From the IMG/VR virus record IMGVR_UViG_3300045988_137383, positions 1 through 61,331 of that record: a DNA stretch of 61,331 nt, one strand, 5' to 3'. The translations under genes were made by a program, and so were the position numbers. This DNA comes from a virus. Of this stretch, positions 2,583 through 26,211 are shown one piece after another. Each line of letters begins with the position of its first letter. Positions within the stretch are counted from its first letter, which is position 1. Below the pieces are notes generated by a model. That model saw only the letters and a program-made list of their open reading frames with translations, made no database searches and had not been told where the DNA came from.

Positions 2583-2617
2583 AGAGACGGAACGGTAACA
2601 ACTAAACGGATAAAGAA

Positions 2618-3613: not shown

Positions 3614-3673
3614 GCCGCCCGCCCTTGCAGTAGATCGTAATTCATTATCAACCATAAATTAAAAATCATCATT

Positions 3674-3937: not shown

Positions 3938-4060
3938 TCCTCCATCACAGCCCCGGCCGGAGGACGGGAACGGCGGGCGACACGCCGCCGGGGCTCCATA
4001 ATTTAAGTTTAATTTTTTTAGAACCCGGTGCCGCGCCGGGTGAACAAGGGCGGAAAGGTT

Positions 4061-4728: not shown

Positions 4729-4812
4729 ACGAGTTGAACGAGGTGGCGGCGGTTGAACGACCAGACCGCCGCCGAAAAAACAGGCTGCGCCAACGGCCAC
4801 ACGGGCAATTAT

Positions 4813-5664
4813 ATGTACAATCTTTTCGAGTGTGTGCGGAGGCACGCTGGCACCAAGGCGGCGGGTACCCTCCGCTATATGGACGAGGTCCATATTTCCG
4901 ACTGGTCGGACCTGACGAGGGCGCGGCTGAACGAATTCCGGGAGGCGGCTGAACGAGATGTATGCGCGAGCACCGCGCGGGGCTACCTGACGCAGATCCG
5001 CGCAATCATAACGCGCTACCGTGACGAGGATGGCGTAAACGTCCCGATCAGTCAGGAGGCTATGAAAGAGCTGTGGAAGCGCGTCCGGCCTGACGACACG
5101 GTAAAGATAGCCCTGACGCGGAAGGAGCTGGACGCCGTGGAGGCGGTCAGGGTGCGGACGCTTGACACGGAGATAGCCCGGCGGGTCTTCATCGTCGGGG
5201 CATACACGGGGATGAGACTTTCGGACATCCTGACGGTCAGGCTGTCAAATATCAAGGGCGACGCGCTCACATACGTGTCGAAGAAGACCGGCACGGCGGC
5301 GACTGTGCCGCTGCGCCCGGCTGTCAGGGAGCACATCGAATGGCTCCAGGCGAGGGCGGAGGAGGCGCGGGGCCTCAGTCGAACGACCCTGAACCGGTCG
5401 ATCAAGGCGGTGGCGGCAAGGGCCGGGCTGAACGACCTGGTAACAGTGACGCGCGGCGGCGTGACCAAGGAGGGCGAGAAGTGGCAGTTCGTGACGATGC
5501 ACACCGCCCGCGTGACCTTCTGCACGAATATGGCGAAGCTGGGGGTATCCGTCTTCGACATAGCCAAGATGGCGGGCCACCACGGGATAAGGCAGACCCT
5601 GAAATATATCGTCGATTCGGAGCCGGAGCTGACGGCGCGGCAGCTGGCCTATTTCCGTGATTAG
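4813..5664 (+). CDS. tyrosine recombinase (short, Xer-like, no arm-binding domain)
   Basis: catalytic boxes AYTGMRLSDIL, MHTARVTF (HxxR) and GHHGIRQTLKYI (His...Tyr); the track start 4753 is TTG, the first ATG is 4813. Confidence 0.85.
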   Translation: MYNLFECVRRHAGTKAAGTLRYMDEVHISDWSDLTRARLNEFREAAERDVCASTARGYLTQIRAIITRYRDEDGVNVPISQEAMKELWKRVRPDDTVKIALTRKELDAVEAVRVRTLDTEIARRVFIVGAYTGMRLSDILTVRLSNIKGDALTYVSKKTGTAATVPLRPAVREHIEWLQARAEEARGLSRTTLNRSIKAVAARAGLNDLVTVTRGGVTKEGEKWQFVTMHTARVTFCTNMAKLGVSVFDIAKMAGHHGIRQTLKYIVDSEPELTARQLAYFRD

Positions 5665-5809
5665 GCCGAACGACCTGAACGACCCGAACGAGGTGACGGC
5701 TGGCATTCCGGCTGAACGGCCAAGGCTGGGCGAACGACCTGGCGGCGGGTCTTGTAATCTCTTGCCACTCGGCGCCAAGGATAGGGCAAAAAAACGGGGG
5801 AAAATTGAA

Positions 5810-5833
5810 TTTTCTTGCCACTTTTCTTGCCAC
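5810..5833. repeat. two tandem copies of the 12-bp unit TTTTCTTGCCAC
   Basis: same dimer recurs at 5994-6017; partial copy at 5760-5768; inverted copy at 6023-6030. Confidence 0.9.
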
Positions 5834-5993
5834 TTTTGTTTAAGTAGCTGAATGTCAAAGGGGATAAAAGCCCGGCTTTGGGCACTGTTTTATCAAAAAT
5901 CAAAGTGTTGATAATCAAGGTTTTTACTGATTATCAGACGATTGAAGAAAGAGGAAATTACTCAAATTTTCGAGTTTTTTCCTCTTTTTTGCG

Positions 5994-6017
5994 TTTTCTT
6001 GCCACTTTTCTTGCCAC
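5994..6017. repeat. two tandem copies of TTTTCTTGCCAC (second pair)
   Basis: identical to 5810-5833. Confidence 0.9.
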
Positions 6018-6044
6018 CCGGCTGGCAAGATTTCCGTTCTTTTT
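6009..6044 (+). terminator. intrinsic-terminator-like hairpin built from the last repeat copy and its inverted copy
   Basis: TCTTGCCA-cccggc-TGGCAAGA followed by tttccgttcttttt. Confidence 0.5.
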
Positions 6045-6082
6045 GCCTATATTTCGGAAGCGAAAGTAAAAGTATTTGAACC

Positions 6083-7234
6083 ATGACTGTGAATTTTAAT
6101 CTTGCGAGGCCGGCGGCGGACGTCTCCCCGATCCGGCTGGTGATAACCCACAGGGGCAAGGTGTACCGCAAATCCATAGGCCTGAGCGTCCGGACGGCGA
6201 GGTGGAACGCCCGGCGGCAGCTGTCCGGCGACCTGGCGGCGGACAGGCGGCTGAACGAGATACGTTCGGGCTTCGAGGAGAGGCTGGACGCGCTCTCCAC
6301 CGACGCGGAGGTCAGGGCGGCCATCGCCGCCGTGCTTGGTGTTCCGGAGAAGGAGGAGGGCGGCGGCGCGCCGGGAATGTGGGAGTGGCTGGAGAGGTGG
6401 AGCCGGAGGCCGTGCGCCTCCATGCGCTTCCGCAGGGTGTCGGTCGAGAAGGCGCGGCGTCTGATGGAGCGCGACGGCGGCAGGTGGGAGGACGTGGACA
6501 GGGCGTGGGCGTGGCGGCTGTCCGAGCGGCTTGACGCGGAGGGGGTGTCGGCCAATTACAAGGCGAGCGTGACGGCGAGGCTCCGGACGGGGATGAAGGC
6601 GGCCTACGACTCGGGGGAGACCTCCTGCCAGGCCTACAGGGAGCTGCATCTCAAATGGGTCACCGCCGACACCACCTACCTGACGCGTGACGAGGTGGAC
6701 ACCCTCTGGGGCGCGCCCCTTGAAGGCCGGGACGCGATGGCGAGGGATCTCTTTATTTTGGGCGTGTACACGGCGGCGAGGTTCCAGAACTACTCCGCCC
6801 TGACCGAGGACAACATCCACGACGGCCTGATCGAGTTCGTGCAGCCGAAGACGGGCGGGCGCGTGCTGCTGCCCGTGTCCCCGAGGGTGTCGGAGGTGCT
6901 GGCGAGGCACGGGGGCGCGGCCCCGAAAATGGCGCAGCAGGAGCTCAACCGGAGGATCAAGGAGATATGCCGGGGGCTTGGGATGGACGGGCGCGTGGAG
7001 GTGGTGTCCAAGAGGGGCGGGCGCACCGAGGTCACGGGGCGGATGAAGTGGGAGATGGTGTCGGCGCACACGGCGAGGCGCACCGGGGCGACCCTGCTCT
7101 ACCTGTCAGGTGTCCCGACGCGCCAGTGCATGATGCTGACCGGCCACACGACCGAGGAGAACTTCCGCAAGTACATCCGCGTCACCAAGGAGGAGAACGC
7201 CCGGATGCTTGCGGACAACCCGTTCTTCAAGTGA
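6083..7234 (+). CDS. int: phage integrase (tyrosine recombinase with N-terminal arm-type DNA-binding domain)
   Basis: SAHTARRTGATLLY (HxxR) and LTGHTTEENFRKYIRV (His...Tyr); the N-terminus VNFNLARP...IRLVITHRGKVYRKSIGL is typical of Bacteroidota integrases. Confidence 0.9.
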   Translation: MTVNFNLARPAADVSPIRLVITHRGKVYRKSIGLSVRTARWNARRQLSGDLAADRRLNEIRSGFEERLDALSTDAEVRAAIAAVLGVPEKEEGGGAPGMWEWLERWSRRPCASMRFRRVSVEKARRLMERDGGRWEDVDRAWAWRLSERLDAEGVSANYKASVTARLRTGMKAAYDSGETSCQAYRELHLKWVTADTTYLTRDEVDTLWGAPLEGRDAMARDLFILGVYTAARFQNYSALTEDNIHDGLIEFVQPKTGGRVLLPVSPRVSEVLARHGGAAPKMAQQELNRRIKEICRGLGMDGRVEVVSKRGGRTEVTGRMKWEMVSAHTARRTGATLLYLSGVPTRQCMMLTGHTTEENFRKYIRVTKEENARMLADNPFFK

Positions 7235-15526: not shown

Positions 15527-16290
15527 TGGAAGATAAGAAACCGTTCATCGTCATCCTCGACTGGATGTATGACCTTGGACTGACATCGAGCGAAGTCCTC
15601 GCCGTTGCGATAATCAACGGCTACACGCAGGACGGGACACACACCTGCCACGTTAGCCTCTCCTACTTCGAGAGGCGATGCTGTCTTAGCAAGCAGGGGG
15701 TGATAGACCTCCTGAAAAGGCTTGAGGCGAAGGGGGTCATCAAGGCGGAGAGGCAGAGCGGGAGGGCGACGGAGTACACCCTCAATGTAAGCGAGGAGGG
15801 GGTCAAGAAACTTGACGGGTCAAGAAACTTGACGGGTCAAGAAACTACTCAAGAGGGGTCAAGTTTCTTTACCCCTCTTTCTTCCCCCCACACCCCCTAT
15901 CTTTCTTCTTATAACAAAGATAAGAAAGAGAAAATCGCGCATACGCGCGAAGGAGCCGCTGGCTCCACCTCCCCCGCCACAGAGAAAGAGGGACAGAACG
16001 AAGCGACACTCTTCGGCACCGAGAAACAGGCATCCGTCGGAGACGGTGCCCCTCAAAGCCAAGGAAAGAAAAAAAGGCAAAAGTCCTGCGCCGCGCCGTT
16101 CGTCCCGCCGACCCTCGCCGAGGTCAGGGACTACATCGAGAACGTGAGGAGGTCGCCGATAGACCCGGTGGCATTCTTCGCCCACTACGAGAACAACGAC
16201 TGGCGGCTGAGCAGCGGCAGGAGGATGAAGGACTGGAGGCTGGCCGTGGTCACATGGGAGAGGAGGGACAGGAATGGCTGGAGCAGGTGA
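15526..16290 (+). CDS. replication initiator / replisome organiser (wHTH N-terminus, DnaD-like C-terminus)
   Basis: wHTH-like LSKQGVIDLLKRLEAKGVI; sits directly upstream of and overlapping the DnaB helicase gene; contains iterons. Confidence 0.65.
   Translation: MEDKKPFIVILDWMYDLGLTSSEVLAVAIINGYTQDGTHTCHVSLSYFERRCCLSKQGVIDLLKRLEAKGVIKAERQSGRATEYTLNVSEEGVKKLDGSRNLTGQETTQEGSSFFTPLSSPHTPYLSSYNKDKKEKIAHTREGAAGSTSPATEKEGQNEATLFGTEKQASVGDGAPQSQGKKKRQKSCAAPFVPPTLAEVRDYIENVRRSPIDPVAFFAHYENNDWRLSSGRRMKDWRLAVVTWERRDRNGWSR
15800..15870. repeat. iterons (putative origin of replication) inside the initiator gene
   Basis: GGGTCAAGAAACTTGAC x2, GGGTCAAGAAACTACTC, GGGTCAAGTTTCTTT; each core GTCAAG-AAA-CTTGAC is palindromic; followed by a pyrimidine tract and an AT-rich inverted repeat up to about 15940. 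Confidence 0.7.
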
Positions 16291-17665
16291 CAGTTTCCCG
16301 AGGCTCTCCGACGAGAGGATCGAGGCCTTGCTGGTGTGGGACATCCTCGCCAGCCCAGAGGTCATAGACGAGGCCCGCAGGGTCGCCCGCCCCGACATGT
16401 TCACCAACAGGCATCTGAGGGAGGCGTTCGGGGCCGTGTGCTCAAGGTGGGACTCCGGCGAGCCGGTGGACGCCTCCGTCCTGATGTCCGTGGCGGACTC
16501 CGACGCTGTCAGGCTGCTTGCGGCCCACACGGGGAGCGGCGGCGGCATCGTGGAGACGCTGAACCACGCGAGGCTGCTGAGGCAGATTTGGGTGGCGCGG
16601 ATGGCTTGGAACTTCGGCGACCGCCTGATGCGCTCCGCCTCCGAGGTGTCGATGATGCCCGAGGGGGTGATGTCCGAGGCGAGGGCGTTCTGCGAGACGC
16701 TGGAGTCGGCGTGCGGCGCAGCCTCGGAGAGGACGATAGCCCAGGCCGCGGACGAGCTGGCGGGGTCGCTCAGGCAGACGTATGAGACGAGGGCCCGCGG
16801 AGGCCTGACCGCCGTGCCCACGTTCATCCCCACCATCGACGGGTGGTTCCTCGGCGGATGCAAGGGGGGAGACCTGATCACGCTGGCGGCGAGGCCGGGT
16901 ATAGGCAAGACATCGCTGATGCTGGCGATGCTGGCGAGGCAGACGGAGGCTGGCATCCCCGGCAAGATCTGGTCCCTGGAGATGGGGCACAGGGAGCTGG
17001 CCAAGAAGGTAATGTACGCCCTCGGGGGGCTGAGGCCGGGCGAGAGCCTGACGGGGCGCGTCGACTGGGACGGGGCGTGGAGGGAGGCGCGGGCGAGGCT
17101 CGAACACTGGGGGCTCTACATCGAGGACCGGACGTTCGGCCTTGACGAGATAGTCTCCGACATCACGGTGAGCAGGCAGCAGGGCAGATGCTCCGTGGCC
17201 TACATCGACTACCTCCAGCTCATCTCCACTCCGGACGGCAGGAACGAGACCGAGGACAGGCGGATAGGGACGATCACGAGGCGGCTGAAGCTGCTGGCCA
17301 AGTCACTGGACATCCCGATCGTGCTTCTCGCGCAGCTCAACCGCGACAACGTGAGGAACGACAGGGACCCGGAGCTGCACGACCTCCGCGGCTCAGGCTC
17401 CATCGAGCAGGACTCCGACAGGGTGGTGTTCCTCTCCCCGAAGACGTCCTACGACGGGGCGCGGCTCGTCAAGGTGATCAACGGCAAGAACCGGGACGGC
17501 GGCCACGCGGGTGAGTCCGTCCTCCTCAGGCCGAACGCCACCTACTCCGAGTTCGAGGAGGTGACGCAGGACGCGCCCGCCTCGATATTCCCCGACACCG
17601 CGAAGACAGAGGCTGAGGAGGAGGGTGAGGTGGCGCACAGGGACCCTTACTTCGACCTCGGTTGA
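16274..17665 (+). CDS. dnaB: DnaB-family replicative helicase
   Basis: Walker A ARPGIGKTS, VAYIDYLQLI, LAQLNRD...LHDLRGSGSIEQDSD. Confidence 0.9.
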   Translation: MAGAGDSFPRLSDERIEALLVWDILASPEVIDEARRVARPDMFTNRHLREAFGAVCSRWDSGEPVDASVLMSVADSDAVRLLAAHTGSGGGIVETLNHARLLRQIWVARMAWNFGDRLMRSASEVSMMPEGVMSEARAFCETLESACGAASERTIAQAADELAGSLRQTYETRARGGLTAVPTFIPTIDGWFLGGCKGGDLITLAARPGIGKTSLMLAMLARQTEAGIPGKIWSLEMGHRELAKKVMYALGGLRPGESLTGRVDWDGAWREARARLEHWGLYIEDRTFGLDEIVSDITVSRQQGRCSVAYIDYLQLISTPDGRNETEDRRIGTITRRLKLLAKSLDIPIVLLAQLNRDNVRNDRDPELHDLRGSGSIEQDSDRVVFLSPKTSYDGARLVKVINGKNRDGGHAGESVLLRPNATYSEFEEVTQDAPASIFPDTAKTEAEEEGEVAHRDPYFDLG

Positions 17666-17901
17666 TGGAGGACAGGGTTTATTCCGAGATCCTCCGCAGG
17701 ACGGAGGAGCGGAGAGGGGCGAACGTCATCCCCCGCCACACGACCCTGCTCGGCCTGAGGCGCTGGGCATATTCCGAGGGCATCCCCGAGGACACACTCC
17801 TCCGGTCGCTCTCGGAGCTCAGGAAGCGGGGGCGGATTGAGGTGGGGAGGACCCTGAATGACTGGTGGATCCGTCCGGTTGAGGAGAGCGAGGAGAAATA
17901 A
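17665..17901 (+). CDS. hypothetical wHTH-like protein, 78 aa
   Basis: its ATG overlaps the dnaB stop (TGATG); the track start 17662 is TTG. Confidence 0.6.
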   Translation: MEDRVYSEILRRTEERRGANVIPRHTTLLGLRRWAYSEGIPEDTLLRSLSELRKRGRIEVGRTLNDWWIRPVEESEEK

Positions 17902-18121
17902 GGCGATTTGGCGGCGTTTTTCGGGTTGAGGTGAGGAAAGCCTTGTTTTGCGGACGAAAGTCGGCGAGAGGGCGAGAAAACTGGCAAAGAATGGAAATTA
18001 CAGGATGAGTTTTGAATGAAAACCCGCCGCCGCGTGGGTCTTATCGCGGCGAATTAGTCATTAGTGTTATTGATTATGTGGTTACACTCCGACGGCCAGC
18101 GGCGAACGCTCGCCCGAGGGA

Positions 18122-18234
18122 CTTCCCGAAGGCCGGAATAAGGATGCTTCCGGCACGATGAGCGAGGACGCCCAAAACACACCTCGTTCAAAGCGTAGGA
18201 CGGCAGGACGGTTCGAGTCCGTCCCGGGGAGCCA
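18122..18234 (+). ncRNA. tRNA-like element 1: acceptor-like stem, two oversized arms, canonical T-arm and 3' CCA
   Basis: T-arm GACGG-TTCGAGT-CCGTC (18207-18223); CTTCCCG (18122-28) pairs with CGGGGAG (18225-31); arms at 18132-54 and 18159-90; CCA at 18232-34. Confidence 0.4.
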
Positions 18235-18332
18235 CACTCAAAGTCTTGGCAGACTTAGGAAAAGCCTCGCAAGCAGGCCAAGGTAGCCCAGGAGTTACCT
18301 TCCAACCCAAGTAGCGGCGTGAGCCGCGAAAA

Positions 18333-18436
18333 GCCCGGAGAGAAAGCGTCCACGGGGACGCGGGAATACGTAGCGATGCTAAAAACACAAATTGATGATT
18401 TTGACAAAAGGCGGTTCGACTCCGCGCTCCGGGCCA
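18333..18436 (+). ncRNA. tRNA-like element 2 (weaker)
   Basis: GCCCGGAG (18333-40) is perfectly complementary to CTCCGGGC (18427-34); T-arm-like GCGG-TTCGACT-CCGC (18411-25); CCA at 18434-36. Confidence 0.3.
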
Positions 18437-18474
18437 AGTTTATTACTGATTGTTTAACTTTTAATAATTCAAAA

Positions 18475-19041
18475 ATGATGGAAAATTACATCGGAAAAAA
18501 GTGCATCGTGAGATGCTATGGCGCCGGGGTCTTCTTCGGCGAGGTCAAAGAGGTGAGCAGTGATGCAAACGGGCTGAACGTCCGTCTTGGCAACGCCCGC
18601 AAGGTGTGGTACTGGGACGGCGCCGCCGCCGTGGAGCAGCTTTCGCAGGAAGGCTGCAACGACAGCAGCAAGATCACGGTGGCCGTGCCTGAGCTGGTAG
18701 TCGCCAACGCTGTCCAGATCATACCTTGCTCTGACAAGGCAATAGCTAACATCGAGGCGAAGAAGAACATAAACGCGCTTCTGAAAGGCCTTGAGGTGGC
18801 CTTTGACGAGACGTTCAATTACGCCATGTGCCGCGTGCCTGAGGGCATGGCGGAGCGCACGGAGGCGTTGCAGTCCTACGCCGACGACATCGTGCGTCTG
18901 CTGATACTGTGCTATTCGAGGGTTGACGGTGATCCGCAGGGCAACGACAAGCGTCAGAGGGTGCACAGGGCGATAGCGAACTTCAAGGCCGTGCCTGGGT
19001 TCGACGCGGAGGCTCTCATCAGGTTCTTCAAGATGAGGTAG
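18475..19041 (+). CDS. hypothetical protein, 188 aa
   Basis: the track ORF starts at 18319 (GTG); codons before 18475 are AT3-rich, unlike genuine genes here; ATGATG at 18475 follows an A/T-rich leader. Confidence 0.7.
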   Translation: MMENYIGKKCIVRCYGAGVFFGEVKEVSSDANGLNVRLGNARKVWYWDGAAAVEQLSQEGCNDSSKITVAVPELVVANAVQIIPCSDKAIANIEAKKNINALLKGLEVAFDETFNYAMCRVPEGMAERTEALQSYADDIVRLLILCYSRVDGDPQGNDKRQRVHRAIANFKAVPGFDAEALIRFFKMR

Positions 19042-20921: not shown

Positions 20922-21081
20922 GGCGAGGGTTGGCTACACGGTGGAGTGCCAGAGGGCGAAGTACAAGCACTGGCACCTGATAGGCACCCACAGGGAGACC
21001 GACATCGAGTTCAGGAGGGCGCTGGGGGACGGCTCGGTTCAGTGGCTCAGGAAGGTGTTCGAGCCGGAGTTTATGTTTTGA
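20896..21081 (+). CDS. hypothetical basic protein, 61 aa
   Basis: internal ATG of track ORF 20839-21081. Confidence 0.4.
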   Translation: MVKARVRYKARVGYTVECQRAKYKHWHLIGTHRETDIEFRRALGDGSVQWLRKVFEPEFMF

Positions 21082-21115
21082 AAGATTAAGGATTACAATT
21101 TAACTAAGTTTTAAG

Positions 21116-21751
21116 ATGAGACGTACAAACCAATCAATCAAGGTCAGAATTGTAGAAGAGGACTATTCTGTCACGGGCAATACGACTGAATGCCGTATGC
21201 GCATACGCACGCAGATAACCCCAAGTTGGTATCACGAGTATTATGCTATAGGCCGGGCTAAGTGTGACCCTAATGATATTTATGACGAATCCACGGGCAG
21301 AAAGATAGCCAAGGCCAGGGCTGTGACAAAAGCATACAAGGAGGCTTACAGATGCGCCACAAAGTATTTCAGGAGGCAGCTTATGTATATCGACTCCTAC
21401 AACCGCTTCCAGCTCAAGGTATCGGATGTGATCAACGGGAACCAAAAGTATCTGGAGAGAATGTTGAGACTTAATCAAGCAAAACAGGTTATGAAGCAAA
21501 AAGAGCATCATGATTTGAAGATCAGTCCCAAATATTACAGGGATATAGAAAGTAATGGAAAACGCTTTGAAGTACGGTTCAATGACCGAGACTTCAAGGT
21601 AGGAGATATCTTGAATCTTCGCGAGTGGGCAGGAGGAGAGTATACTGGAAGAAAAATTACTTGCGAGGTTAAGTATATCTTGGATAATCCGGACTATTGC
21701 AAGGACGGTTATGTTATTATGCAAATTGATGTCATATCTATCAGTCGGTAA
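21116..21751 (+). CDS. two-domain protein with a C-terminal ASCH/DUF3850-like domain
   Basis: HHDLKISPKYYRDIESNGKRFEVRFNDRDFKVGDILNLREW..GEYTGRKITCEVKYIL matches the DUF3850 pattern. Confidence 0.7.
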   Translation: MRRTNQSIKVRIVEEDYSVTGNTTECRMRIRTQITPSWYHEYYAIGRAKCDPNDIYDESTGRKIAKARAVTKAYKEAYRCATKYFRRQLMYIDSYNRFQLKVSDVINGNQKYLERMLRLNQAKQVMKQKEHHDLKISPKYYRDIESNGKRFEVRFNDRDFKVGDILNLREWAGGEYTGRKITCEVKYILDNPDYCKDGYVIMQIDVISISR

Positions 21752-21766
21752 TTAAAATGATTAATT

Positions 21767-21976
21767 ATGGCATGGATAGCAAGAGATTTATCAGAAGATT
21801 TATATGTCTATGATTCAAAACCTGTTAGAGACGATGAATTTTACGGGTGGATTATCCCGGATGCTTTCAGATATGAAATATTTGACTTTAATAGGGTTGA
21901 ACTTCCTTCTGACGCTGATGAAAAGCTAATTGGAAGGCATATCACTTGGGAAGACAATCCTGTAGAATTGAAATAG
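21767..21976 (+). CDS. hypothetical protein, 69 aa (AT-rich island)
   Basis: ATG ORF. Confidence 0.6.
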   Translation: MAWIARDLSEDLYVYDSKPVRDDEFYGWIIPDAFRYEIFDFNRVELPSDADEKLIGRHITWEDNPVELK

Positions 21977-21978
21977 TT

Positions 21979-22245
21979 ATGTTTATATTAATTCTATTCA
22001 TAGCCGTCTACTTCATTGCCGGCTCGATTATCATGTGCCTTTTGGAGCGATGGGAGCGTTCGGTGATGAAAATTGATGGATATAATGGCTTTGAAGGAGT
22101 TTTCATTGACAAGGAAAAGGGTAGCCGCGAATGCAAGGTAAAGTATGACAGCATCATCGGGATGATAATTGTCTGGCCTCTCGTTATATTATCTTTGATT
22201 GTTTTTCTCATTTATAAGCTAATCAGAAAATTGTGTGGAATATGA
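21979..22245 (+). CDS. membrane protein, 88 aa
   Basis: ATG at 21979 (MFILILFIAVYFIAG); two TM helices. Confidence 0.6.
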   Translation: MFILILFIAVYFIAGSIIMCLLERWERSVMKIDGYNGFEGVFIDKEKGSRECKVKYDSIIGMIIVWPLVILSLIVFLIYKLIRKLCGI

Positions 22246-22460
22246 CAAATCTCGAACAAACATTTTTGGAATCAGCGACAAGATATTTCCGTGAAGCCCA
22301 ATCAAAGGAAATCGACTGGGAGCAGCGCAGGTATGAAATAGCAAAAGATGCGCTCGCAGCCTTACTCTCAAATCCTACAATAGGAGGAGTGTATGCTTCC
22401 TATTCAAAGGTTGCAGTTGATTACGCTGATGCTCTTATTGAGGAACTTAAAAAGAAATAG
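22242..22460 (+). CDS. hypothetical protein, 72 aa
   Basis: ATGA overlap with the upstream stop. Confidence 0.6.
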   Translation: MTNLEQTFLESATRYFREAQSKEIDWEQRRYEIAKDALAALLSNPTIGGVYASYSKVAVDYADALIEELKKK

Positions 22461-22462
22461 TT

Positions 22463-22696
22463 ATGACAATTGAGGAAAAAGCAAAAAGCTATGCAGGCTA
22501 TGATGTAATGCCTACACCAGATATAGTCACTGAGGTAAGGATGGCCAACATACGCGATGCTTTCAAAGCAGGTGCTGAATGGATGCTTGAAAAAGCCTGT
22601 GAATATATAAGGAGTCAATATCCAGTTCACTACCAAGAATGGTATGAGTTAGCTGAAGAACGTGTTAAACAATTCAAGAAAGCAATGGAAGAATAA
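22463..22696 (+). CDS. hypothetical protein, 77 aa (tandem paralog A)
   Basis: MTIEEKAKSY...AFKAGAEWMLEKACEYI. Confidence 0.6.
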   Translation: MTIEEKAKSYAGYDVMPTPDIVTEVRMANIRDAFKAGAEWMLEKACEYIRSQYPVHYQEWYELAEERVKQFKKAMEE

Positions 22697-22699
22697 ATT

Positions 22700-22915
22700 A
22701 TGACAATTGAAGAAAAATCTATAGATTTTGTTAGCGGTATTATCGACCATAAAATTGCTACTTTAGAAAGAGTTAGTTTTACTTGCGGCGCACAGTGGAT
22801 GCAATCCGAATTGATAGAAAAAGCCGTCGAGTGGTTCAAGCATCAAAAGGAAGAGATAGGAATATCTTGGTTTGATGACTTTGAGATTAGATTCAGAAAA
22901 GCAATGAAGGACTAA
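22700..22915 (+). CDS. hypothetical protein, 71 aa (tandem paralog B)
   Basis: MTIEEKSIDF...CGAQWMQSELIEKAVEWF is similar to the upstream gene. Confidence 0.6.
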   Translation: MTIEEKSIDFVSGIIDHKIATLERVSFTCGAQWMQSELIEKAVEWFKHQKEEIGISWFDDFEIRFRKAMKD

Positions 22916-22929
22916 TTTAGCTCAAGAAG

Positions 22930-23256
22930 ATGATTTTCAGACACGAATTTGGTAAAGGAGAATGGAATTTACCGGAAATCCTCAACTACGAGGAATATAG
23001 GTACAATAAGTCATGTGCATGTGATAACTGTAACTACCATTTTACACATCGATCAGCATATCGAGAAGGTATTGTGGGATATTGTGTTACTGAAAATGGG
23101 TATTTTCTGTGTTTTGAATGTCCTGGTTGTGGATCAAAATACAGGTATCACTATTCGAGTAACGGAGAAAAATATGGAAATTTTGAGGAATGGAAAAAAG
23201 ATGTAGCCCGTGCACTATTTCTCGAAGGATACGAACAATTCAAAGTGCAGCAATAA
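22930..23256 (+). CDS. Cys-rich putative zinc-binding protein, 108 aa
   Basis: CACDNC...C...CFECPGC. Confidence 0.6.
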   Translation: MIFRHEFGKGEWNLPEILNYEEYRYNKSCACDNCNYHFTHRSAYREGIVGYCVTENGYFLCFECPGCGSKYRYHYSSNGEKYGNFEEWKKDVARALFLEGYEQFKVQQ

Positions 23257-23276
23257 AATAAGAAATAAAAATCATT

Positions 23277-23654
23277 ATGAACGATAAACTAAAAGAGCTA
23301 ATTCAACCTTATTGGGTTGAAGAACAACAAGGAGTATATATTCCATTGATTGACAAGGTGTTGCTCAAGGATAATGTTCCTGCAATGTCATATTACGATT
23401 ATATGAAATACGCAAAAACCAATGGAGTTCAAATCGCAACAAGAGACGAGCTATTGCAGATGTATCTCCAGAAAGATGAGATTAATAAAATATTAAAAGA
23501 ACATAATGGTGATATGCTTGATACTTGGTTTGGTTCTTCGTTGGAGTATAATTCACTTTACGTGCGGTTCGTCCACTTTAGCACCGGTAGTTGTGGCGTC
23601 GCAAGCAAGCATTATCTTTCTGTCAGCAGGGCGGTCGTAGATTTGAAAAATTAA
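23277..23654 (+). CDS. hypothetical protein, 125 aa (possibly DUF1566-like)
   Basis: IATRDELLQMY...WFGSS...V.F..G pattern; weak. Confidence 0.55.
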   Translation: MNDKLKELIQPYWVEEQQGVYIPLIDKVLLKDNVPAMSYYDYMKYAKTNGVQIATRDELLQMYLQKDEINKILKEHNGDMLDTWFGSSLEYNSLYVRFVHFSTGSCGVASKHYLSVSRAVVDLKN

Positions 23655-23667
23655 AAAAATAGATAAT

Positions 23668-23925
23668 ATGAAACAGTTCACTGTAGAAGAATATAAGAAG
23701 AATCCAAGCCGTAAAGTTATTACTCGTGACGGCAGGAGTGTGAGAATTGTCTGTACCGATGTTATGGGAGCCATTTACCCGGTTCTTGCTGTTTATAAGA
23801 AGGATCCTACTCATGAAAGTTGGAATTCTTATACGACTGATGGAAAACTTTACACAGTGGGAGACACAGATAGCGATTTATTCTTTGCTCCGGAAAACAT
23901 GAGGGTTGGATTAATCTGGCAATAG
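23668..23925 (+). CDS. hypothetical protein, 85 aa; coding signal continues in another frame to 24047
   Basis: after ...FFAPE the next frame reads KHEGWINLAIDSSGEIFVATNHPHKDEKTAKLAVSDKSNVVATCKITWEE and ends 2 nt before the next ATG. Confidence 0.55.
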   Translation: MKQFTVEEYKKNPSRKVITRDGRSVRIVCTDVMGAIYPVLAVYKKDPTHESWNSYTTDGKLYTVGDTDSDLFFAPENMRVGLIWQ

Positions 23926-24049
23926 ACTCAAGCGGAGAAATCTTTGTAGCAACAAACCATCCTCACAAGGACGAGAAAACTGCTAAATTGGCAGTATCTG
24001 ATAAATCAAATGTTGTGGCCACCTGCAAAATAACCTGGGAGGAATAATC

Positions 24050-24505
24050 ATGAAAGTTTCTGAACTACAAATCGGCGACTGGGTGAAAATATCGCGCCAT
24101 GAAAAAGTGGTGGGAATACAGAACATTTCTGTTGCCTCGCCGGATCATTATAATATAACGACCAAATTAGCGGGAGAATCCTATCACAGAAAAGAAGATG
24201 AAGTGGAGTCTATCCCTCTGACAAGAGAGATAATGGATGCGAATCTGGACGGGCCGGACGGCTGGAAGTATGACGGAATCAGGTACACCTGGGCCAACAC
24301 TTTCTCGAAAAGCGCCCACCTTCATGCTGTGTACATTGAGTTCGTCATGGATCAAGCTATACTTTGCGTCTATGAGCGGAAGTCCACGATGTCTCATTCG
24401 CAGGAACCGCGCATTTTGGGAATGAAAATATCCTATGTCCACGAGTTGCAGCGCGCCCTGCGCTTGGCCGGGCTGAACGGGCTGGCCAATAATTTTAAAG
24501 TATAA
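24050..24505 (+). CDS. hypothetical protein, 151 aa
   Basis: ATG ORF. Confidence 0.65.
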   Translation: MKVSELQIGDWVKISRHEKVVGIQNISVASPDHYNITTKLAGESYHRKEDEVESIPLTREIMDANLDGPDGWKYDGIRYTWANTFSKSAHLHAVYIEFVMDQAILCVYERKSTMSHSQEPRILGMKISYVHELQRALRLAGLNGLANNFKV

Positions 24506-24509
24506 CATT

Positions 24510-24806
24510 ATGGAAGAAAAGCTACAGAAGGCCCTTGTGGATATCGCATTAAAAGTCTGCGAGGCAAAGAAAAGTCCGTTCTGCGACAGGTACATCATAA
24601 CAAGCCTGACAGAACTGCTGAGACATTTCAAGGATAACGGCATGTTGAAAGAAGCCCTCGTGTCCGGAATCAAGAGCGTGAGTGTGCCTGACGGTGTGCT
24701 CGGGATGTTTAATAAATTCATGAAAGAAGACGTTAAATTCCCGAAGCCAACGGATGAGGAGATAGAGCGGATGGCGGACAGGTTCATCACCGATGTGTTT
24801 GAATAG
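24510..24806 (+). CDS. hypothetical protein, 98 aa
   Basis: ATG ORF. Confidence 0.65.
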   Translation: MEEKLQKALVDIALKVCEAKKSPFCDRYIITSLTELLRHFKDNGMLKEALVSGIKSVSVPDGVLGMFNKFMKEDVKFPKPTDEEIERMADRFITDVFE

Positions 24807-24812
24807 GTGTTT

Positions 24813-24968
24813 ATGAGACGTTCAAAATTAGTGGAGGTGATTCCGTTTGACGCTCCATCAGAGTGCCCATACAACTGCGTGGGTTGCGAGCATCTGAGGG
24901 GCGTCGTCTATTACGGCAACGATGATGTCGAGGTCGAGTGCGACCTGGACGAGGAGGAAGGGCAATGA
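24813..24968 (+). CDS. small Cys-containing protein, 51 aa
   Basis: MRRSKLVEVIPFDAPSECPYNCVGCEHL...; overlaps the next start (ATGA). Confidence 0.4.
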   Translation: MRRSKLVEVIPFDAPSECPYNCVGCEHLRGVVYYGNDDVEVECDLDEEEGQ

Positions 24969-25219
24969 CGGAAGATTACACTGACGTATATCACGATGAT
25001 AACGGAACCGTAATACCAGAAGAGTCTTTCGCGCCAACAACCGAAGGTAGTAAGATACTACTAAGCGGCTCTGTTGAGGATTCTCCGAGCTTTGCAAAAT
25101 TGCTTAATGGCGAAAAACAAAAGCATGCTGGGCTATCCAAATCTTTAGAGGAATTGTTAGGTGTTCCTGTTACTGTGTGGGTAAGTTTACGTACAGTTGA
25201 CGAATTAAACAAGGATTGA
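24965..25219 (+). CDS. hypothetical protein, 84 aa
   Basis: ATG at 24965 (MTEDYTDVYHDD). Confidence 0.55.
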   Translation: MTEDYTDVYHDDNGTVIPEESFAPTTEGSKILLSGSVEDSPSFAKLLNGEKQKHAGLSKSLEELLGVPVTVWVSLRTVDELNKD

Positions 25220-25221
25220 AT

Positions 25222-25389
25222 ATGACCAACGAAGAATTTAAGAAAATCCCGTTCAAATATGACGGTGACGGGAATCCGGTAACATTCGGTGAAGCCGGGA
25301 CGTTTTTCACAAGGGAAGAGCGCAGGAAAATCAAAAGGCTCATCGAAAGAGGATATTCGGTGAGCGAGGCAATGAATAAAACCATCTGA
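25222..25389 (+). CDS. small hypothetical protein, 55 aa
   Basis: MTNEEFKKIPFKYDGDGNPV...; 2-nt gaps on both sides. Confidence 0.4.
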   Translation: MTNEEFKKIPFKYDGDGNPVTFGEAGTFFTREERRKIKRLIERGYSVSEAMNKTI

Positions 25390-25391
25390 TT

Positions 25392-25691
25392 ATGAAATTT
25401 GAAATACCAGCAACATTCACGCTCGGCGGTGTGGAGCACGTTGTCGAGATTCAGCAGGTGGTAGGGTATGAACAAGATTTTGGGCAATACGATCCTGCCA
25501 GGAAGGTTATACAAATAGCCCTGACAAGCAGGGGCCGGGTCTTGCCGCAGTCATTTCAGCAGCAGACCTTCCTTCACGAGCTTGTCCATGCCATACTGAA
25601 CACGATGCGAAAGGATGACTTATATGATGACGAGTCTTTCGTCAATACTTTCGCTTCCTTTCTCAACGAGGCTATCAACACGATGGAATAG
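25392..25691 (+). CDS. small putative zinc metallopeptidase
   Basis: HELVHAI (HExxH) motif. Confidence 0.55.
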   Translation: MKFEIPATFTLGGVEHVVEIQQVVGYEQDFGQYDPARKVIQIALTSRGRVLPQSFQQQTFLHELVHAILNTMRKDDLYDDESFVNTFASFLNEAINTME

Positions 25692-25694
25692 GCT

Positions 25695-25847
25695 ATGACG
25701 GTTAAAGAACTGATAGAAGCCCTCTATCGGATGCCGCAGGATAGCGAGGTGGTGATGTTCGATGGCCAGAACAGGTACACCCCGCGCAAGGTCTATGTGG
25801 CCGACGGGGGAGGTGATGGTATCAAGTGGAGCGTTGTGATTGATTAA
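25695..25847 (+). CDS. small hypothetical protein, 50 aa
   Basis: MTVKELIEALYRMPQDSEVVMFDG... Confidence 0.4.
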   Translation: MTVKELIEALYRMPQDSEVVMFDGQNRYTPRKVYVADGGGDGIKWSVVID

Positions 25848-25860
25848 AAAGAGCGGAGCA

Positions 25861-26211
25861 ATGAATGATAGTATAAATTCTCACAAGATATTGCAGCCCG
25901 GCGACCGATTTGGCCATTGGACGGTGCTTGGGTACATAGGCCTGCGCAAGGCGAGTTCGAATACGAGGAACCGCCTCCGTATGTACCGTTGCCGTTGCGA
26001 CTGCGGAAGGGAGCGTGATGTCAGGGGAACAGACCTCACGAGAGGCGTGTCCCCGTCCTGCGGATGTCGCAGATGGGAGGGCAGGAGAGAAATCAGAGAC
26101 GAGAGATTCAAGGCAGTCACGAACCGAGTCCCGAAACCCTACGTCCCTGAGCACCCCGAGTTGTTCACCGATGACTGGATGTTCGGAGACAGACAGGCAC
26201 CGTTTGCCTAA
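25861..26211 (+). CDS. Cys-rich zinc-ribbon-like protein (paralog of 19043-19363)
   Basis: GDRFGHWTVLG...CRCDCG...SCGC...DDWMFG. Confidence 0.7.
   Translation: MNDSINSHKILQPGDRFGHWTVLGYIGLRKASSNTRNRLRMYRCRCDCGRERDVRGTDLTRGVSPSCGCRRWEGRREIRDERFKAVTNRVPKPYVPEHPELFTDDWMFGDRQAPFA

What the first reader, a model, noticed from the sequence alone, without database searches (positions are those of the whole stretch)
17902..18474. ORF-free, hairpin-dense 573-nt region with two tandem tRNA-like modules
The gap lies between the replication operon and the next credible start at 18475. Upstream in-frame codons are AT3-rich, unlike real genes here. The stretch is a chain of perfect hairpins: 18028-18051 (7 bp), 18132-18154 (7 bp), 18159-18190 (9 bp with one G-U, 14-nt loop), 18241-18256, 18280-18301, 18314-18327 (GTGA tetraloop) and 18346-18361. 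It contains two T-arm motifs. The first is GACGG-TTCGAGT-CCGTC followed by CCGGGGAG-CCA. The second is GCGG-TTCGACT-CCGC followed by CTCCGGG-CCA. Each 3' strand has an upstream partner: CTTCCCG at 18122-28 (one G-U) and GCCCGGAG at 18333-40 (perfect 8 bp). Element 1 folds on paper as a 113-nt cloverleaf-like four-way junction with oversized D-like and anticodon-like arms. It is therefore not a decodable tRNA. Possible roles are all speculative: an RNase P/Z processing signal separating early transcripts, a decoy for host tRNA-targeting nucleases, part of a large ornate phage RNA (GOLLD/ROOL-type RNAs associate with tRNAs), or attP cores that copy host tRNA 3' ends.
Basis: partly seen in the sequence, partly recalled or inferred. 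Interest (0 to 1): 0.7.

Follow-up and report, generated by a model that had tools for sequence, protein, structure and literature searches.

The report
Anticodon-less tRNA-like modules in phage operon
The gap holds two real, evolutionarily conserved RNA modules that copy the top half of a tRNA but have no anticodon. They sit just upstream of the next gene in gut Bacteroidales phages and most likely act as cutting signals for the host's tRNA-processing enzymes, a role known from plant mitochondria but, as far as I could find, not described in phages.

Summary
Every hairpin and both T-arm motifs lie at the stated coordinates. Related phage contigs keep the stems through many compensatory changes: module A has 15 of 28 pairs with changes on both sides and module C has 10 of 22, with 98% of cells paired against 34-58% when partners are slid. 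ARAGORN and Rfam find no tRNA, tmRNA, GOLLD or ROOL.

The region is not one unit. The RNA proper spans about 18090-18435 and consists of two self-contained modules, A (18122-18231) and C (18333-18434). A third type, B, lies between them in other phages. Each module has an acceptor-like stem, a D-like hairpin or loop that nearly always carries GG, a GGTTCGAnTCC T arm and no anticodon loop.

The 'CCA' tails are not conserved. In module C the first C of the 'CCA' is part of a covarying base pair.

Modules occur as A-C, A-B-C, C alone, or A alone in an unrelated Mu-like phage. They always lie on the coding strand, 19-43 nt before the next start codon, whichever gene follows.

Best reading (inferred, not shown): they are signals for host RNase P and RNase Z, like plant-mitochondrial t-elements or mascRNA, and they release stable tRNA mimics. 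The attP, coding, tmRNA and single-giant-RNA readings are rejected.

The parts
17902..18022 (+). Conserved non-coding leader. It is not part of the tRNA-like RNA.
   Evidence: It aligns to relatives. In L026 the same segment (query 1-97) is followed by an SSB gene, and the tRNA-like unit starts only after that gene.
18023..18051 (+). GC-rich hairpin(s) closing the upstream operon. ACCCGC/GCGGGT overlaps CGCCGCG/CGCGGCG (18028-18051).
   Evidence: Seen. In L007 the same stem is followed by TTTTAT and aligns with the terminator hairpin of the Rfam rsmX model. In the window the T run is broken (TCTTAT).
18052..18089 (+). AT-rich stretch conserved in sequence, without structure (…TTAGTGTTATTGATTATGTGGTTA…). 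It may be a promoter or a protein-binding site.
   Evidence: It is conserved without pairing. The sigma-70 scan finds nothing, but the host is Bacteroidales and that scan does not cover its promoter type. The stretch is absent before the stand-alone unit C of L017.
18094..18114 (+). P0 hairpin (GGC…GCC around AGCG-GCGAA-CGCT), 7 nt before module A. Most relatives have a GNRA loop here.
   Evidence: RNAalifold predicts it. The outer pair changes GGC/GCC to GAG/CTC to GAC/GTC. The inner stem changes GGCT-GCGA-AGTC to GGCA-GCGA-TGTC in the Mu-like phage.
18122..18232 (+). Module A, a 110-nt four-way tRNA-like fold. Acceptor 18122-28/18225-31. D-like arm 18132-38/18148-54 with a GG-containing loop. 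Optional long arm 18159-67/18182-90 with a 14-nt loop (ACGCCCAAAACACA). Conserved GGACGGCAG. T arm 18206-11/18219-24 with loop TTCGAGT. An invariant unpaired C at 18232.
   Evidence: In 27 distinct sequences 98.3% of cells are paired and 15 of 28 pairs change on both sides. Slid controls give 36-58% paired. The acceptor stem changes CG to AU in L049 and L074. The MFE fold gives the four-way junction with z = -3.3. The long arm is replaced by a 5-bp hairpin or is absent in other phages.
18241..18256 (+). Hairpin AAGTCT-TGGC-AGACTT after module A. The window lacks module B and its flank, which follow this hairpin in A-B-C phages.
   Evidence: Seen. The sequence after the hairpin (AGGAAAAGCC) matches the 3' flank of module B in L007 and L010, so the window looks like a deletion of B.
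18264..18301 (+). H1 (GCCT/AGGC, weak) and H2 (AAGGTA-GCCCAGGAGT-TACCTT, conserved in sequence).
   Evidence: H1 is deleted or altered in L001 and L025, so it is not required. H2 is nearly invariant, with one G-U variant, so covariation cannot test it.
18314..18327 (+). H3 hairpin GCGGC-GUGA-GCCGC, 5 nt before module C. It has a GNRA loop (GUGA or GCGA) in all but one relative, where the loop is UUGA.
   Evidence: Two of 5 pairs change on both sides (GC, CG, UA, AU). Seven sequences have G-U on the + strand.
18333..18435 (+). Module C, a 102-nt tRNA-like fold. Acceptor 8 bp, 18333-40/18427-34. D-like hairpin 18346-61 with loop ACGG. Conserved GGGAAUACGU at 18362-71. Variable, unpaired, CA-rich 38 nt (18372-18409) where the anticodon arm would be. 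T arm 18411-14/18422-25 with loop TTCGACT. An invariant G·G next to it. An invariant unpaired C at 18435.
   Evidence: In 16 distinct sequences 98% of cells are paired and 10 of 22 pairs change on both sides, 5 of them in the acceptor stem (GCCCGGAG to GCCCGGGG, AUGCCGGG or AUGCUGAG, each with a matching 3' strand). Slid controls give 34-50%. RNAalifold finds the same structure unaided. z = -2.7.
18436..18474 (+). AT-rich spacer to the start codon of the next gene (ATG at 18475, DUF6948 protein).
   Evidence: Across distinct relatives the last module ends 20-43 nt before the start of the next ORF. At least five different genes follow.

Best explanation
The + strand of about 18090-18435 encodes a non-coding RNA made of two independently folding tRNA mimics, modules A and C. 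Each keeps the top half of a tRNA: an acceptor-like stem stacked on a canonical T arm, and a D-like element, nearly always carrying GG, that could dock on the T loop. Each lacks an anticodon loop, so neither can decode.

The modules are intercistronic elements of the phage early/middle operon. The most likely mechanism is that the folded modules are recognised by the host's tRNA end-processing enzymes. RNase P would cut at the 5' side of each acceptor stem, before 18122 and 18333. RNase Z would cut after the unpaired C that follows each stem, at 18232 and 18435.

This would cut the long transcript. It would leave the upstream pieces ending in a stable hairpin, usually GNRA-capped (P0, H3). It would define the 5' end of the downstream mRNA about 40 nt before its start codon. 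It would also release stable tRNA-like small RNAs.

This is how plant-mitochondrial t-elements and the mammalian mascRNA element work.

Shown here: the structures, their conservation by covariation, the strand, the tRNA-like features, the lack of decoding features, the modular and mobile distribution, and the fixed position before the next gene.

Inferred: transcription, cleavage by RNase P and RNase Z, and any further activity of the released RNAs.
For: Structure and strand:
- Covariation counts for A, B and C all far exceed the shuffled and slid controls.
- RNAalifold agrees unaided for module C.
- G-U pairs lie on the + strand.
- The T-loop order (U at loop position 1, A at position 5) fits only the + strand.

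tRNA-like but not tRNA:
- GGTTCGAnTCC is invariant in 27/27 A, 8/8 B and 15/16 C sequences.
- GG is present in the D-like loop in most sequences.
- ARAGORN genes in the window and in 22 relatives.
- Rfam has no hit for A or C at E<=10.
- Module B gives full-length but sub-threshold hits to mascRNA-menRNA (30.9 bits, gathering score 42.5) and tRNA-Sec (30.2 bits, gathering score 47).

Modularity:
- Among 35 distinct units the architectures are A-C (about 20), A-B-C (about 10) and C only (5, though two of these, L018 and L064, carry a degenerate A).
- Unit C stands alone directly after an ORF's stop codon in L017.
- P0 plus module A stands alone in the early operon of a Mu-like transposable phage, 19 nt before its transposase gene. 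That phage shares almost no protein with the window: one weak 29% hit. The similarity to the window is confined to P0 and module A and stops exactly at the module's 3' boundary.

Position:
- The last module always ends 20-43 nt before the next start codon, whichever of at least 5 genes follows.

Generality:
- An unrelated 96-kb phage contig has 10 T-arm elements in 6.3 kb, all on the coding strand. Those checked against the ORF list each fill one intergenic gap.
- Each folds as closing stem, hairpin(s) and T arm, and is followed by GGAGG and a start codon. ARAGORN calls none of them as tRNA.
- In a sample of 121 phage sites with a T loop followed by an SD and ATG, 46 are not called tRNAs. Of the 41 that could be tested, 73% have an abutting closing stem, against 22% after shuffling.

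Precedent:
- t-elements with the conserved GGTTCRANYCC arm direct RNase P and RNase Z cleavage and so form mRNA ends (PMC1920247).
Against: - No transcript or end-mapping data were available, so cleavage is wholly inferred.
- The modules are more elaborate than a cutting signal needs, and they are conserved in unpaired parts: GGACGGCAG, GGGAAUACGU and the AAACACA-containing loops. This holds even between phages that share almost no proteins. It hints at an additional specific partner.
- Two or three different modules in tandem are more than punctuation requires.
- The acceptor/T stack has 13 layers (7+6, 8+5, 8+G·G+4), not the 12 of ordinary tRNAs. Natural 8-bp-acceptor tRNAs (His, Sec) are still processed normally (established knowledge).
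- Some copies of module A are visibly decayed (L018, L064), so A at least is dispensable.
- An AT-rich promoter-like stretch before the unit may mean it is also transcribed on its own.
Confidence: 0.45

Rival explanations
1. The modules are trans-acting tRNA mimics. Whether or not they are excised by RNase P/Z, their real job is to bind a host factor that recognises the tRNA elbow and acceptor stem. That factor could be a tRNA-modifying or tRNA-targeting defence enzyme, or a ribosome or elongation-factor site. The modules could also display the CA-rich single-stranded segments on a nuclease-resistant tRNA scaffold.
For: - Unpaired segments (GGACGGCAG, GGGAAUACGU, loop …AAAACACA…) are conserved far beyond what folding needs.
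- Module A is about 80% identical between the window phage and a Mu-like phage that shares almost no proteins with it. This points to a common host partner.
- Three distinct module types are each conserved as a type.
Against: - No partner was identified.
- No Ro60/TROVE, RtcB, CCA-adding or other tRNA-related gene was found among about 47 window ORFs scanned.
- The AAACACA loop is replaced in L050 and L051 and deleted in L070, and the whole arm is optional.
- Decayed copies exist.
- This reading does not by itself explain the fixed position 20-43 nt before the next gene.
Confidence: 0.2
2. The modules form a cis-acting structured leader without cleavage. They stay attached to the downstream mRNA and control its stability or translation, for example as a 5' protective fold or as a ribosome-recruiting tRNA mimic in a host that lacks Shine-Dalgarno pairing.
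For: - They are always on the coding strand, 19-43 nt upstream of the next start codon, followed by an A/U-rich spacer and no terminator.
- The same placement is seen in L094.
Against: - The downstream gene is interchangeable, so there is no gene-specific regulation.
- Distant DUF6948 homologues have no such leader.
- A canonical T arm plus acceptor stem is exactly what RNase P and RNase Z recognise, so escaping cleavage would need a special explanation (established knowledge).
Confidence: 0.2
3. The whole intergenic region is one large multi-domain 'ornate' RNA of the GOLLD/ROOL type that works as a single unit.
For: - The region is a dense chain of hairpins, several with GNRA loops (P0, H3), plus T loops. 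Both are typical tertiary-contact motifs.
- The whole 573 nt folds slightly better than shuffles (z = -1.9).
Against: - No Rfam hit to GOLLD, ROOL or any large RNA at E<=10.
- Domains occur alone and in different combinations.
- H1 is dispensable.
- Genes are inserted between parts.
Confidence: 0.05
4. The feature acts at the DNA level. The T-arm/acceptor segments would be attP-like cores or recombination hot spots copied from host tRNA 3' ends.
For: - Mosaic breakpoints coincide with module ends, for example the junction right after module C in L003/L011 and the apparent deletion of B in the window.
- The phage is temperate and has two tyrosine integrases.
Against: - The 5' strands, D-like hairpins and extra arm covary with compensatory changes. 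A DNA core site does not need this.
- The integrases lie 11-13 kb away.
- The 3' strands differ between close relatives.
Confidence: 0.03
5. The modules are decaying tRNA pseudogenes with no function, or an unannotated protein-coding stretch.
For: - Phage tRNA clusters often sit at this genomic position (general knowledge).
- Two decayed copies of A exist.
- A public gene call extends the DUF6948 ORF by 33 codons into module C.
Against: - 98% pairing is maintained through many double changes over 70-95% sequence identity.
- Frame-breaking indels are present, and the ATG at 18376 is not conserved.
Confidence: 0.02

Closest known systems
Plant-mitochondrial t-elements (tRNA-like elements at mRNA ends; PMC1920247)
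   Same: Both are non-canonical tRNA-like folds with a perfectly conserved GGTTCRANYCC T arm and an acceptor-like stem. Both lie next to protein genes on the same strand and have no decoding function. t-elements direct RNase P and RNase Z cleavage and thereby form mRNA 5' and 3' ends, which is the mechanism proposed here.
   Different: t-elements are found in organelles, not phages. Cleavage was shown for t-elements and only inferred here. The window's modules A and C are larger (about 100-110 nt). They carry extra conserved unpaired motifs and come in tandem arrays of distinct types.
mascRNA / menRNA tRNA-like elements of MALAT1 and NEAT1 (Rfam RF01684)
   Same: Both are small tRNA-like folds without a functional anticodon, embedded in a longer transcript. 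In mascRNA, RNase P cleavage forms the 3' end of the upstream RNA and RNase Z plus CCA addition release the small RNA (established knowledge). Module B aligns over the full model.
   Different: The score is below the Rfam threshold (30.9 against 42.5 bits). Only module B hits, and B is absent from this window. The known family is from vertebrate nuclei, so the resemblance is convergent, not homology.
tmRNA tRNA-like domain
   Same: Both have an acceptor stem and T arm with a reduced D element and no anticodon arm. Both are bacterial or phage-borne.
   Different: There is no conserved tag reading frame, resume codon or pseudoknots. There is no G3·U70, and CCA is not conserved. ARAGORN reports no tmRNA, and there is no full-length tmRNA match in Rfam. 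The only matches are two 15-17-nt T-arm fragments of a 331-position model in L007, at 7.6-10.2 bits.
Bacterial/phage Y RNA-like YrlA (PMC4201824)
   Same: Both are non-coding RNAs with a tRNA-like module (T arm, D arm, acceptor-like stem). Some YrlA RNAs are phage-encoded, and M. smegmatis YrlA is cut by RNase P and receives CCA.
   Different: YrlA is permuted: its acceptor stem is closed by a loop and the ends form the Ro-binding stem. It is encoded next to a Ro60/TROVE gene. Here the topology is that of a normal tRNA, and no Ro60 gene was found in the ORFs scanned.
tRNA punctuation of animal mitochondrial transcripts and RNase P cleavage of bacterial operon mRNAs (established knowledge)
   Same: In both, tRNA-shaped elements between cistrons serve as cutting sites for RNase P and RNase Z.
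   Different: Those punctuation marks are functional tRNAs. In E. coli operons they are loosely tRNA-like structures. Here the elements are dedicated and conserved, and they cannot decode.
tRNA-Sec / tRNA-His geometry (8-bp acceptor, 13-bp acceptor/T helix)
   Same: All three modules stack 13 layers (A 7+6, B 8+5, C 8+G·G+4). Module B gives a sub-threshold hit to the tRNA-Sec model.
   Different: They have no anticodon arm, no long variable arm and no encoded CCA. The score of 30.2 bits is below the gathering score of 47.

Membership tests
Canonical tRNA | Cloverleaf with a 5-bp anticodon stem and 7-nt anticodon loop, detectable by tRNA finders | tested here: not met
   ARAGORN reports 0 genes in the window and in 22 related loci. 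There is no Rfam tRNA-clan hit at E<=10 on 17800-18600. The arm in the anticodon position is 8-9 bp with a 14-nt loop in A, and is replaced by a 5-bp/5-nt hairpin or absent in relatives. In C it is an unpaired stretch of about 40 nt.
Canonical tRNA | T arm with loop consensus UUCRANY closed by G53-C61, next to the 3' acceptor strand | tested here: met
   GGTTCGAnTCC is invariant in A (27/27), B (8/8) and C (15/16), and it directly abuts the 3' acceptor strand.
Canonical tRNA | 7-bp acceptor plus 5-bp T stem (12-bp helix), then discriminator and CCA (encoded or added) | tested here: not met
   The stacks have 13 layers. The CCA seen in the window is not conserved, and in C its first C is a covarying base pair. 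An unpaired C follows each stem in every sequence examined.
tmRNA (one-piece or permuted) | tRNA-like domain plus a conserved tag reading frame ending in stop codon(s), pseudoknots, G3·U70 and CCA | tested here: not met
   ARAGORN reports no tmRNA, and Rfam has no full-length tmRNA match. The only matches are two 15-17-nt T-arm fragments of beta_tmRNA in L007, at 10.2 and 7.6 bits against a gathering score of 84. Candidate frames in the variable region of C are broken by 1-nt and 5-nt indels, and one relative lacks 13 nt of it. Position 3 of the A acceptor is U·G or C-G, not G·U.
Plant-mitochondrial-type t-element (functional class) | Non-canonical tRNA-like fold with a conserved GGTTCRANYCC arm and an acceptor-like stem | tested here: met
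   compared with the definition in PMC1920247.
Plant-mitochondrial-type t-element (functional class) | Located at the borders of mRNAs, next to protein genes on the same strand | tested here: met
   The modules end 19-43 nt before the next start codon, in front of at least 5 different genes in the window lineage and the transposase gene in the Mu-like lineage. Real transcript ends are unknown.
Plant-mitochondrial-type t-element (functional class) | Cleaved by RNase P (5') and RNase Z (3'), with non-templated C/CA on the excised element | not testable with these tools
   This needs end mapping or in-vitro cleavage assays.
mascRNA-menRNA (Rfam RF01684) | Score at or above the family's gathering threshold | tested here: not met
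   Module B of L007 scores 30.9 bits against 42.5. Modules A and C in the window give no hit.
YrlA / bacterial Y RNA | Encoded next to a Ro60 (TROVE) gene, with a permuted tRNA-like module and a Ro-binding stem | tested here: not met
   No TROVE domain was found in about 47 window ORFs scanned with Pfam or PHROGs. Not every small ORF was scanned. The topology is not permuted, and Rfam has no hit.
GOLLD / ROOL large ornate RNAs | Match to the Rfam covariance models, and one large conserved multi-domain fold | tested here: not met
   There is no hit at the gathering threshold on the whole window or at E<=10 on the region. The domains occur independently.
attP core copying a host tRNA 3' end | Exact identity to the 3' part of a host tRNA gene | not tested
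attP core copying a host tRNA 3' end | Adjacent to the integrase gene, with no need for a complementary 5' strand | tested here: not met
   The integrases are at 4753-5664 and 6083-7234. The 5' strands covary with the 3' strands.
Type III toxin-antitoxin RNA array | Tandem near-identical short repeats followed by a toxin gene | tested here: not met
   Modules A, B and C differ in sequence and size. The downstream gene is interchangeable, and distant DUF6948 homologues lack the RNA.

The most novel reading that the evidence does not exclude
Phages widely carry dedicated, anticodon-less tRNA mimics ('phage t-elements') between their genes. These would hijack the host's RNase P and RNase Z to punctuate operon transcripts. 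The elaborate Bacteroidales modules A, B and C would be specialised members whose released RNAs also bind a host tRNA-recognising factor, for example as decoys for a tRNA-targeting defence. This would be a new layer of phage gene-expression control and host interaction.
Probability: 0.3. Interest if true: 0.85.

Novelty: new variant of a known kind. Interest (0 to 1): 0.72.

Why it matters
If the mechanism holds, temperate phages of a dominant group of human-gut bacteria use purpose-built tRNA look-alikes to have the host's own tRNA-processing enzymes cut their operon transcripts. That mode of punctuation is so far documented for organelles and a few eukaryotic long non-coding RNAs, not for phages.

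It would also explain a class of 'ORF-free' gaps that annotation pipelines currently fill with spurious N-terminal extensions, as happened to the gene downstream of this gap.

The side survey suggests such elements are common in phages and invisible to tRNA finders. About a quarter of sampled sites with a T loop followed by an SD and ATG, and ten elements in 6 kb of one phage, fit this description.

The strong sequence conservation of module A across unrelated phages further suggests a specific host partner worth identifying. That partner may be relevant to anti-phage defences that target tRNAs.

In practice, these compact self-excising modules could serve as processing parts for multi-gene constructs in Bacteroides.

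Tried and rejected
**Known RNA classes**
- tRNA and tmRNA: ARAGORN found none in the window or in 22 related loci.
- Rfam, whole window at gathering scores: nothing.
- Rfam, the region at E<=10: only junk, a minus-strand mir-485 hit and a lncRNA hit.
- tmRNA-like tag ORF in module C: candidate frames (for example GCU AAA AAC ACA AAU UGA UGA) are not kept in relatives.
- Ro60/Y-RNA idea: no TROVE gene found.
- Literature: six full-text searches found no description of these phage elements or of DUF6948. The supplements of the large phage structured-RNA catalogue (PMC10690425) are not held, so overlap with its unnamed candidates cannot be excluded.

**Sequence searches**
- GenBank phages, blastn with the 573 nt and with the Mu-like locus: no match.

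**Protein partner**
- DUF6948 protein as an obligate partner: distant homologues have 15-56-nt upstream gaps and no RNA.
- PHROGs and Pfam give DUF6948 no function. Structure prediction was therefore not run.

**Signals and targets**
- Sigma-70 promoter and intrinsic terminator scan: nothing on the + strand. The scan does not cover Bacteroidales promoters.
- Target search for the CA-rich motif (complement TTGTGTTTT) in the window: 16 matches with up to one mismatch against 7.5 expected. Two of them are the motif itself, and none suggested a target.

**Structure**
- Long-range pairing between the AT-rich stretch and the AAACACA loops: no covariation (inspection).
- H1 as a required helix: it is deleted or altered in relatives.

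**Other readings**
- Coding potential: rejected because of indels and the non-conserved ATG.
Full report
**1. The observation**

It also shows both T-arm motifs, with loops at 18212-18218 and 18415-18421, and both acceptor-like pairings: 18122-28 with 18225-31, and 18333-40 with 18427-34.

GGTTCRANTCC occurs only twice in the 61-kb window, both times here on the + strand. Shuffles give 0.38 on average.

Single-sequence folding is only modestly better than shuffles. The z-score is -1.9 for the whole gap, -3.3 for module A and -2.7 for module C. The window alone would therefore not be convincing.

**2. What it is not**

- ARAGORN finds no tRNA or tmRNA in the window or in 22 related loci.
- Rfam 15 gives nothing at gathering scores for the window and nothing relevant at E<=10 for the region.
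- GenBank phages hold no similar DNA.

**3. Context**

The window is a temperate phage. Its genes include:

- ArdA and two tyrosine integrases (4753-7234);
- RecT, a PD-(D/E)XK/FtsK-like protein, a replication initiator and a DnaB helicase (16274-17665);
- a 79-aa ORF, then the gap;
- a DUF6948 protein (ATG at 18475), HNH and DUF3850;
- further away, a reverse transcriptase with a TR/VR pair, a holin, an intein-containing terminase and an SPP1-type portal.

All neighbouring genes are on the + strand. The only genome hit for the RNA is a Bacteroidales MAG. An identical copy of the locus lies in the NCBI MAG GCA_900771835.1. At least one of the matching metagenome contigs is labelled as a human gut metagenome assembly.

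**4. Comparative evidence**

Protein-anchored and pattern searches brought in about 60 related loci. The gap is homologous at 70-95% identity and is mosaic.

Three module types emerge. Each has an acceptor-like stem, a D-like hairpin or GG-containing loop, and a T arm with GGTTCGAnTCC. None has an anticodon loop.

| Module | Sequences | Cells paired | Pairs changed on both sides | Slid controls |
|---|---|---|---|---|
| A | 27 | 98.3% | 15 of 28 | 36-58% |
| C | 16 | 98% | 10 of 22 | 34-50% |
| B (absent from the window) | 8 | 99.3% | 5 of 18 | 45-65% |

- In module A the changes include CG to AU in the acceptor stem (CTCCACG/CGTGGAG in L049 and L074).
- In module C five of the changed pairs are in the 8-bp acceptor stem. 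RNAalifold finds the same structure unaided.
- In none of the three alignments did any of 500 shuffles reach the observed percentage paired or covariation score.
- G-U pairs lie on the + strand, and the T-loop polarity fits only that strand.

The 'CCA' is not conserved. Module A is followed by CCA, CGA, CGG, CCG or CAA. In module C the first C pairs with the 5' G and changes to U when that G changes to A. What is invariant is one unpaired C after each stem.

All three modules stack 13 layers in the acceptor/T helix: 7+6, 8+5 and 8+G·G+4. In A this count includes an invariant G-C pair that covariation cannot verify.

Module B gives full-length but sub-threshold Rfam hits to mascRNA-menRNA and tRNA-Sec.

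The region is not coding. Homologues differ by 1-, 5- and about 30-nt indels. The ATG at 18376, used in a public gene call, is not conserved.

**5. Anatomy of the gap**

- 17902-~18000 is a separate leader. In L026 an SSB gene sits between it and the RNA.
- 18023-18051 is a terminator-like hairpin. In L007 it is a proper stem followed by a T run.
- 18052-18089 is a sequence-conserved AT-rich stretch.
- Then follow P0 (18094-18114), module A (18122-18232), a hairpin (18241-56), H1, H2 and H3, module C (18333-18435), and a 39-nt AT-rich spacer to the ATG.
- The window looks like an A-B-C array that has lost B.

**6. Modularity and position**

Among 35 distinct units the architectures are A-C (about 20), A-B-C (about 10) and C only (5). 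Two of the C-only units, L018 and L064, still carry a degenerate copy of A.

Unit C (H1-H3 plus C) stands alone right after an ORF's stop codon in L017, without the AT-rich stretch.

A relaxed search found P0 plus module A alone in a different phage lineage. That lineage is Mu-like, with an S24 repressor, an rve transposase and a MuB-like ATPase. The module sits inside the early operon, 19 nt before the transposase start. That lineage shares almost no protein with the window: one weak 29% hit. The similarity covers only P0 and module A and ends exactly at the module's 3' boundary.

In the window lineage the last module ends 20-43 nt before the next start codon, whichever of at least five genes follows. 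Distant DUF6948 homologues have no room for the RNA, so the RNA is not that protein's partner.

**7. A wider phenomenon (seen in passing)**

A covariance model of module B weakly hit an unrelated 96-kb phage contig. Its first 6.3 kb hold ten T-arm elements, all on the coding strand. The eight that could be checked against the ORF list each lie in one intergenic gap. Each folds as closing stem, one or two hairpins and an abutting T arm. Each is followed by GGAGG and a start codon. ARAGORN calls none of them and Rfam has no hit.

A capped IMG/VR scan for 'T loop, 10-30 nt, AGGAGG, ATG' gave 121 sites, and 46 are not called as tRNA. Of the 41 that could be tested, 73% have an abutting closing stem, against 22% after shuffling.

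**8. Mechanism**

The combination of features matches plant-mitochondrial t-elements. These are cut by RNase P and RNase Z and so form mRNA ends (PMC1920247). It also matches the mascRNA element. The features are:

- a canonical T arm;
- an acceptor stem;
- an elbow-forming GG in most copies;
- no anticodon;
- coding-strand, intercistronic placement just before the next gene;
- independence from the identity of that gene.

I therefore commit to host RNase P and RNase Z processing as the most likely mechanism (0.45). The predicted cuts lie before 18122 and 18333 and after 18232 and 18435. Upstream fragments would end in a hairpin, usually GNRA-capped (P0, H3). This step is inferred, not shown.

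Unpaired motifs are conserved beyond what folding needs, even across unrelated phages, and distinct module types come in tandem. This leaves room for an additional trans-acting role of the released tRNA mimics (0.2) or for an uncleaved leader function (0.2).

The single-giant-RNA, attP, pseudogene and coding readings are rejected on the evidence above.

**9. Novelty**

I found no description of these elements in six literature searches. They are absent from Rfam 15. They may be among the unnamed candidates of a large phage structured-RNA catalogue whose data I could not read.

tRNA-like processing elements are a known kind. Dedicated, conserved, tandem ones in phages appear to be a new variant.

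Noticed in passing
L094 1-6400 (= IMGVR_UViG_3300017963_000220, first 13.6 kb; L091 is a sub-stretch): There are ten T-arm elements (46-89 nt), all on the coding strand, at about 170, 597, 1104, 1535, 1863, 3025, 3677, 4297, 4807 and 6283. Each has a closing stem, one or two hairpins and an abutting T arm. The eight inside the ORF list of L091 each lie in one intergenic gap. Each is followed by GGAGG and a start codon. ARAGORN calls none of them as tRNA, and Rfam has no hit over the first 4.4 kb (L091), which holds eight of the ten. Two of them share the GG[GT]CGGCAG signature of module A.
   Followed up: partly
L088 2150-2262 (also L086, L089, L092): A solitary P0 plus module A lies inside the early operon of a Mu-like transposable phage, 19 nt upstream of the rve-type transposase gene (2268-4346). 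A MuB/TniB-like AAA_22 ATPase follows the transposase, and an S24 repressor is divergently transcribed upstream. Apart from one weak 29% hit, no protein is shared with the window phage.
   Followed up: partly
L095-L214 (IMG/VR sample): Many T-loop sites just upstream of an SD and ATG are not called tRNAs yet have acceptor-like closing stems. Three examples stand out. A recurrent 62-nt element (AGATCG…GGTCGGTTCGATTCCGGCGATCT) occurs in at least 9 contigs. A 57-nt element has an acceptor, a canonical D arm and a T arm but no anticodon arm (L152, L165). Minihelices of 39-51 nt occur in L104, L114 and L182. A few, such as L168 and L213, look like tRNAs with insertions.
   Followed up: partly
window 33844-37366 (- strand): This is a diversity-generating retroelement. 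It has a reverse-transcriptase gene (33844-35400) and a 120-nt template/variable repeat pair, 35271-35390 and 36008-36127, at 93% identity. The variable copy lies at the 3' end of the 463-aa gene at 35975-37366.
   Followed up: partly
window 18376-18474: A public gene call (P0001, 221 aa, in NCBI MAG GCA_900771835.1) starts the DUF6948 gene at the ATG at 18376, inside module C. That ATG is not conserved in relatives, so the 33-codon extension is probably an annotation artefact.
   Followed up: yes
window 53811-56549: The large terminase gene carries a LAGLIDADG/Hom_end homing-endonuclease domain (residues about 303-387), which suggests an intein.
   Followed up: no
window 17902-18000: This is a conserved non-coding leader directly after the 79-aa ORF. 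In L026 it precedes an SSB gene that the window lacks. It may be an orphaned leader or promoter region.
   Followed up: partly
window 18075-18085: TGTGGTTAC (TGTGGTTAA in relatives) lies in the AT-rich conserved stretch. By my own comparison it matches the reverse complement of the DnaA-box consensus TGTGGATAA at 7-8 of 9 positions. It lies next to the replication genes and could be chance.
   Followed up: no
window 21000-26000: This is a low-GC island (37-47% GC against about 58-66% elsewhere) of small + strand ORFs. The ones scanned have no Pfam hits. It is possibly a recently acquired accessory or moron region.
   Followed up: no
L011 3130-3975; L026 1318-1644 and 2087-2633: Different genes are inserted around the RNA unit in close relatives. 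In L011 a PP-loop (SGGKDS) PAPS-reductase-like gene lies between module C and the DUF6948 gene. In L026 an SSB gene lies before the unit and an unrelated gene (about 180 aa from the ATG 43 nt after module C) lies after it. The unit borders therefore coincide with mosaic breakpoints.
   Followed up: partly
L087 2960-3050: A 105-kb phage contig carries another anticodon-less tRNA-like element (TGCTGAT…ATCAGCA-G-CCA, with an encoded CCA). It lies next to a gene that ARAGORN calls 'tRNA-???'.
   Followed up: no
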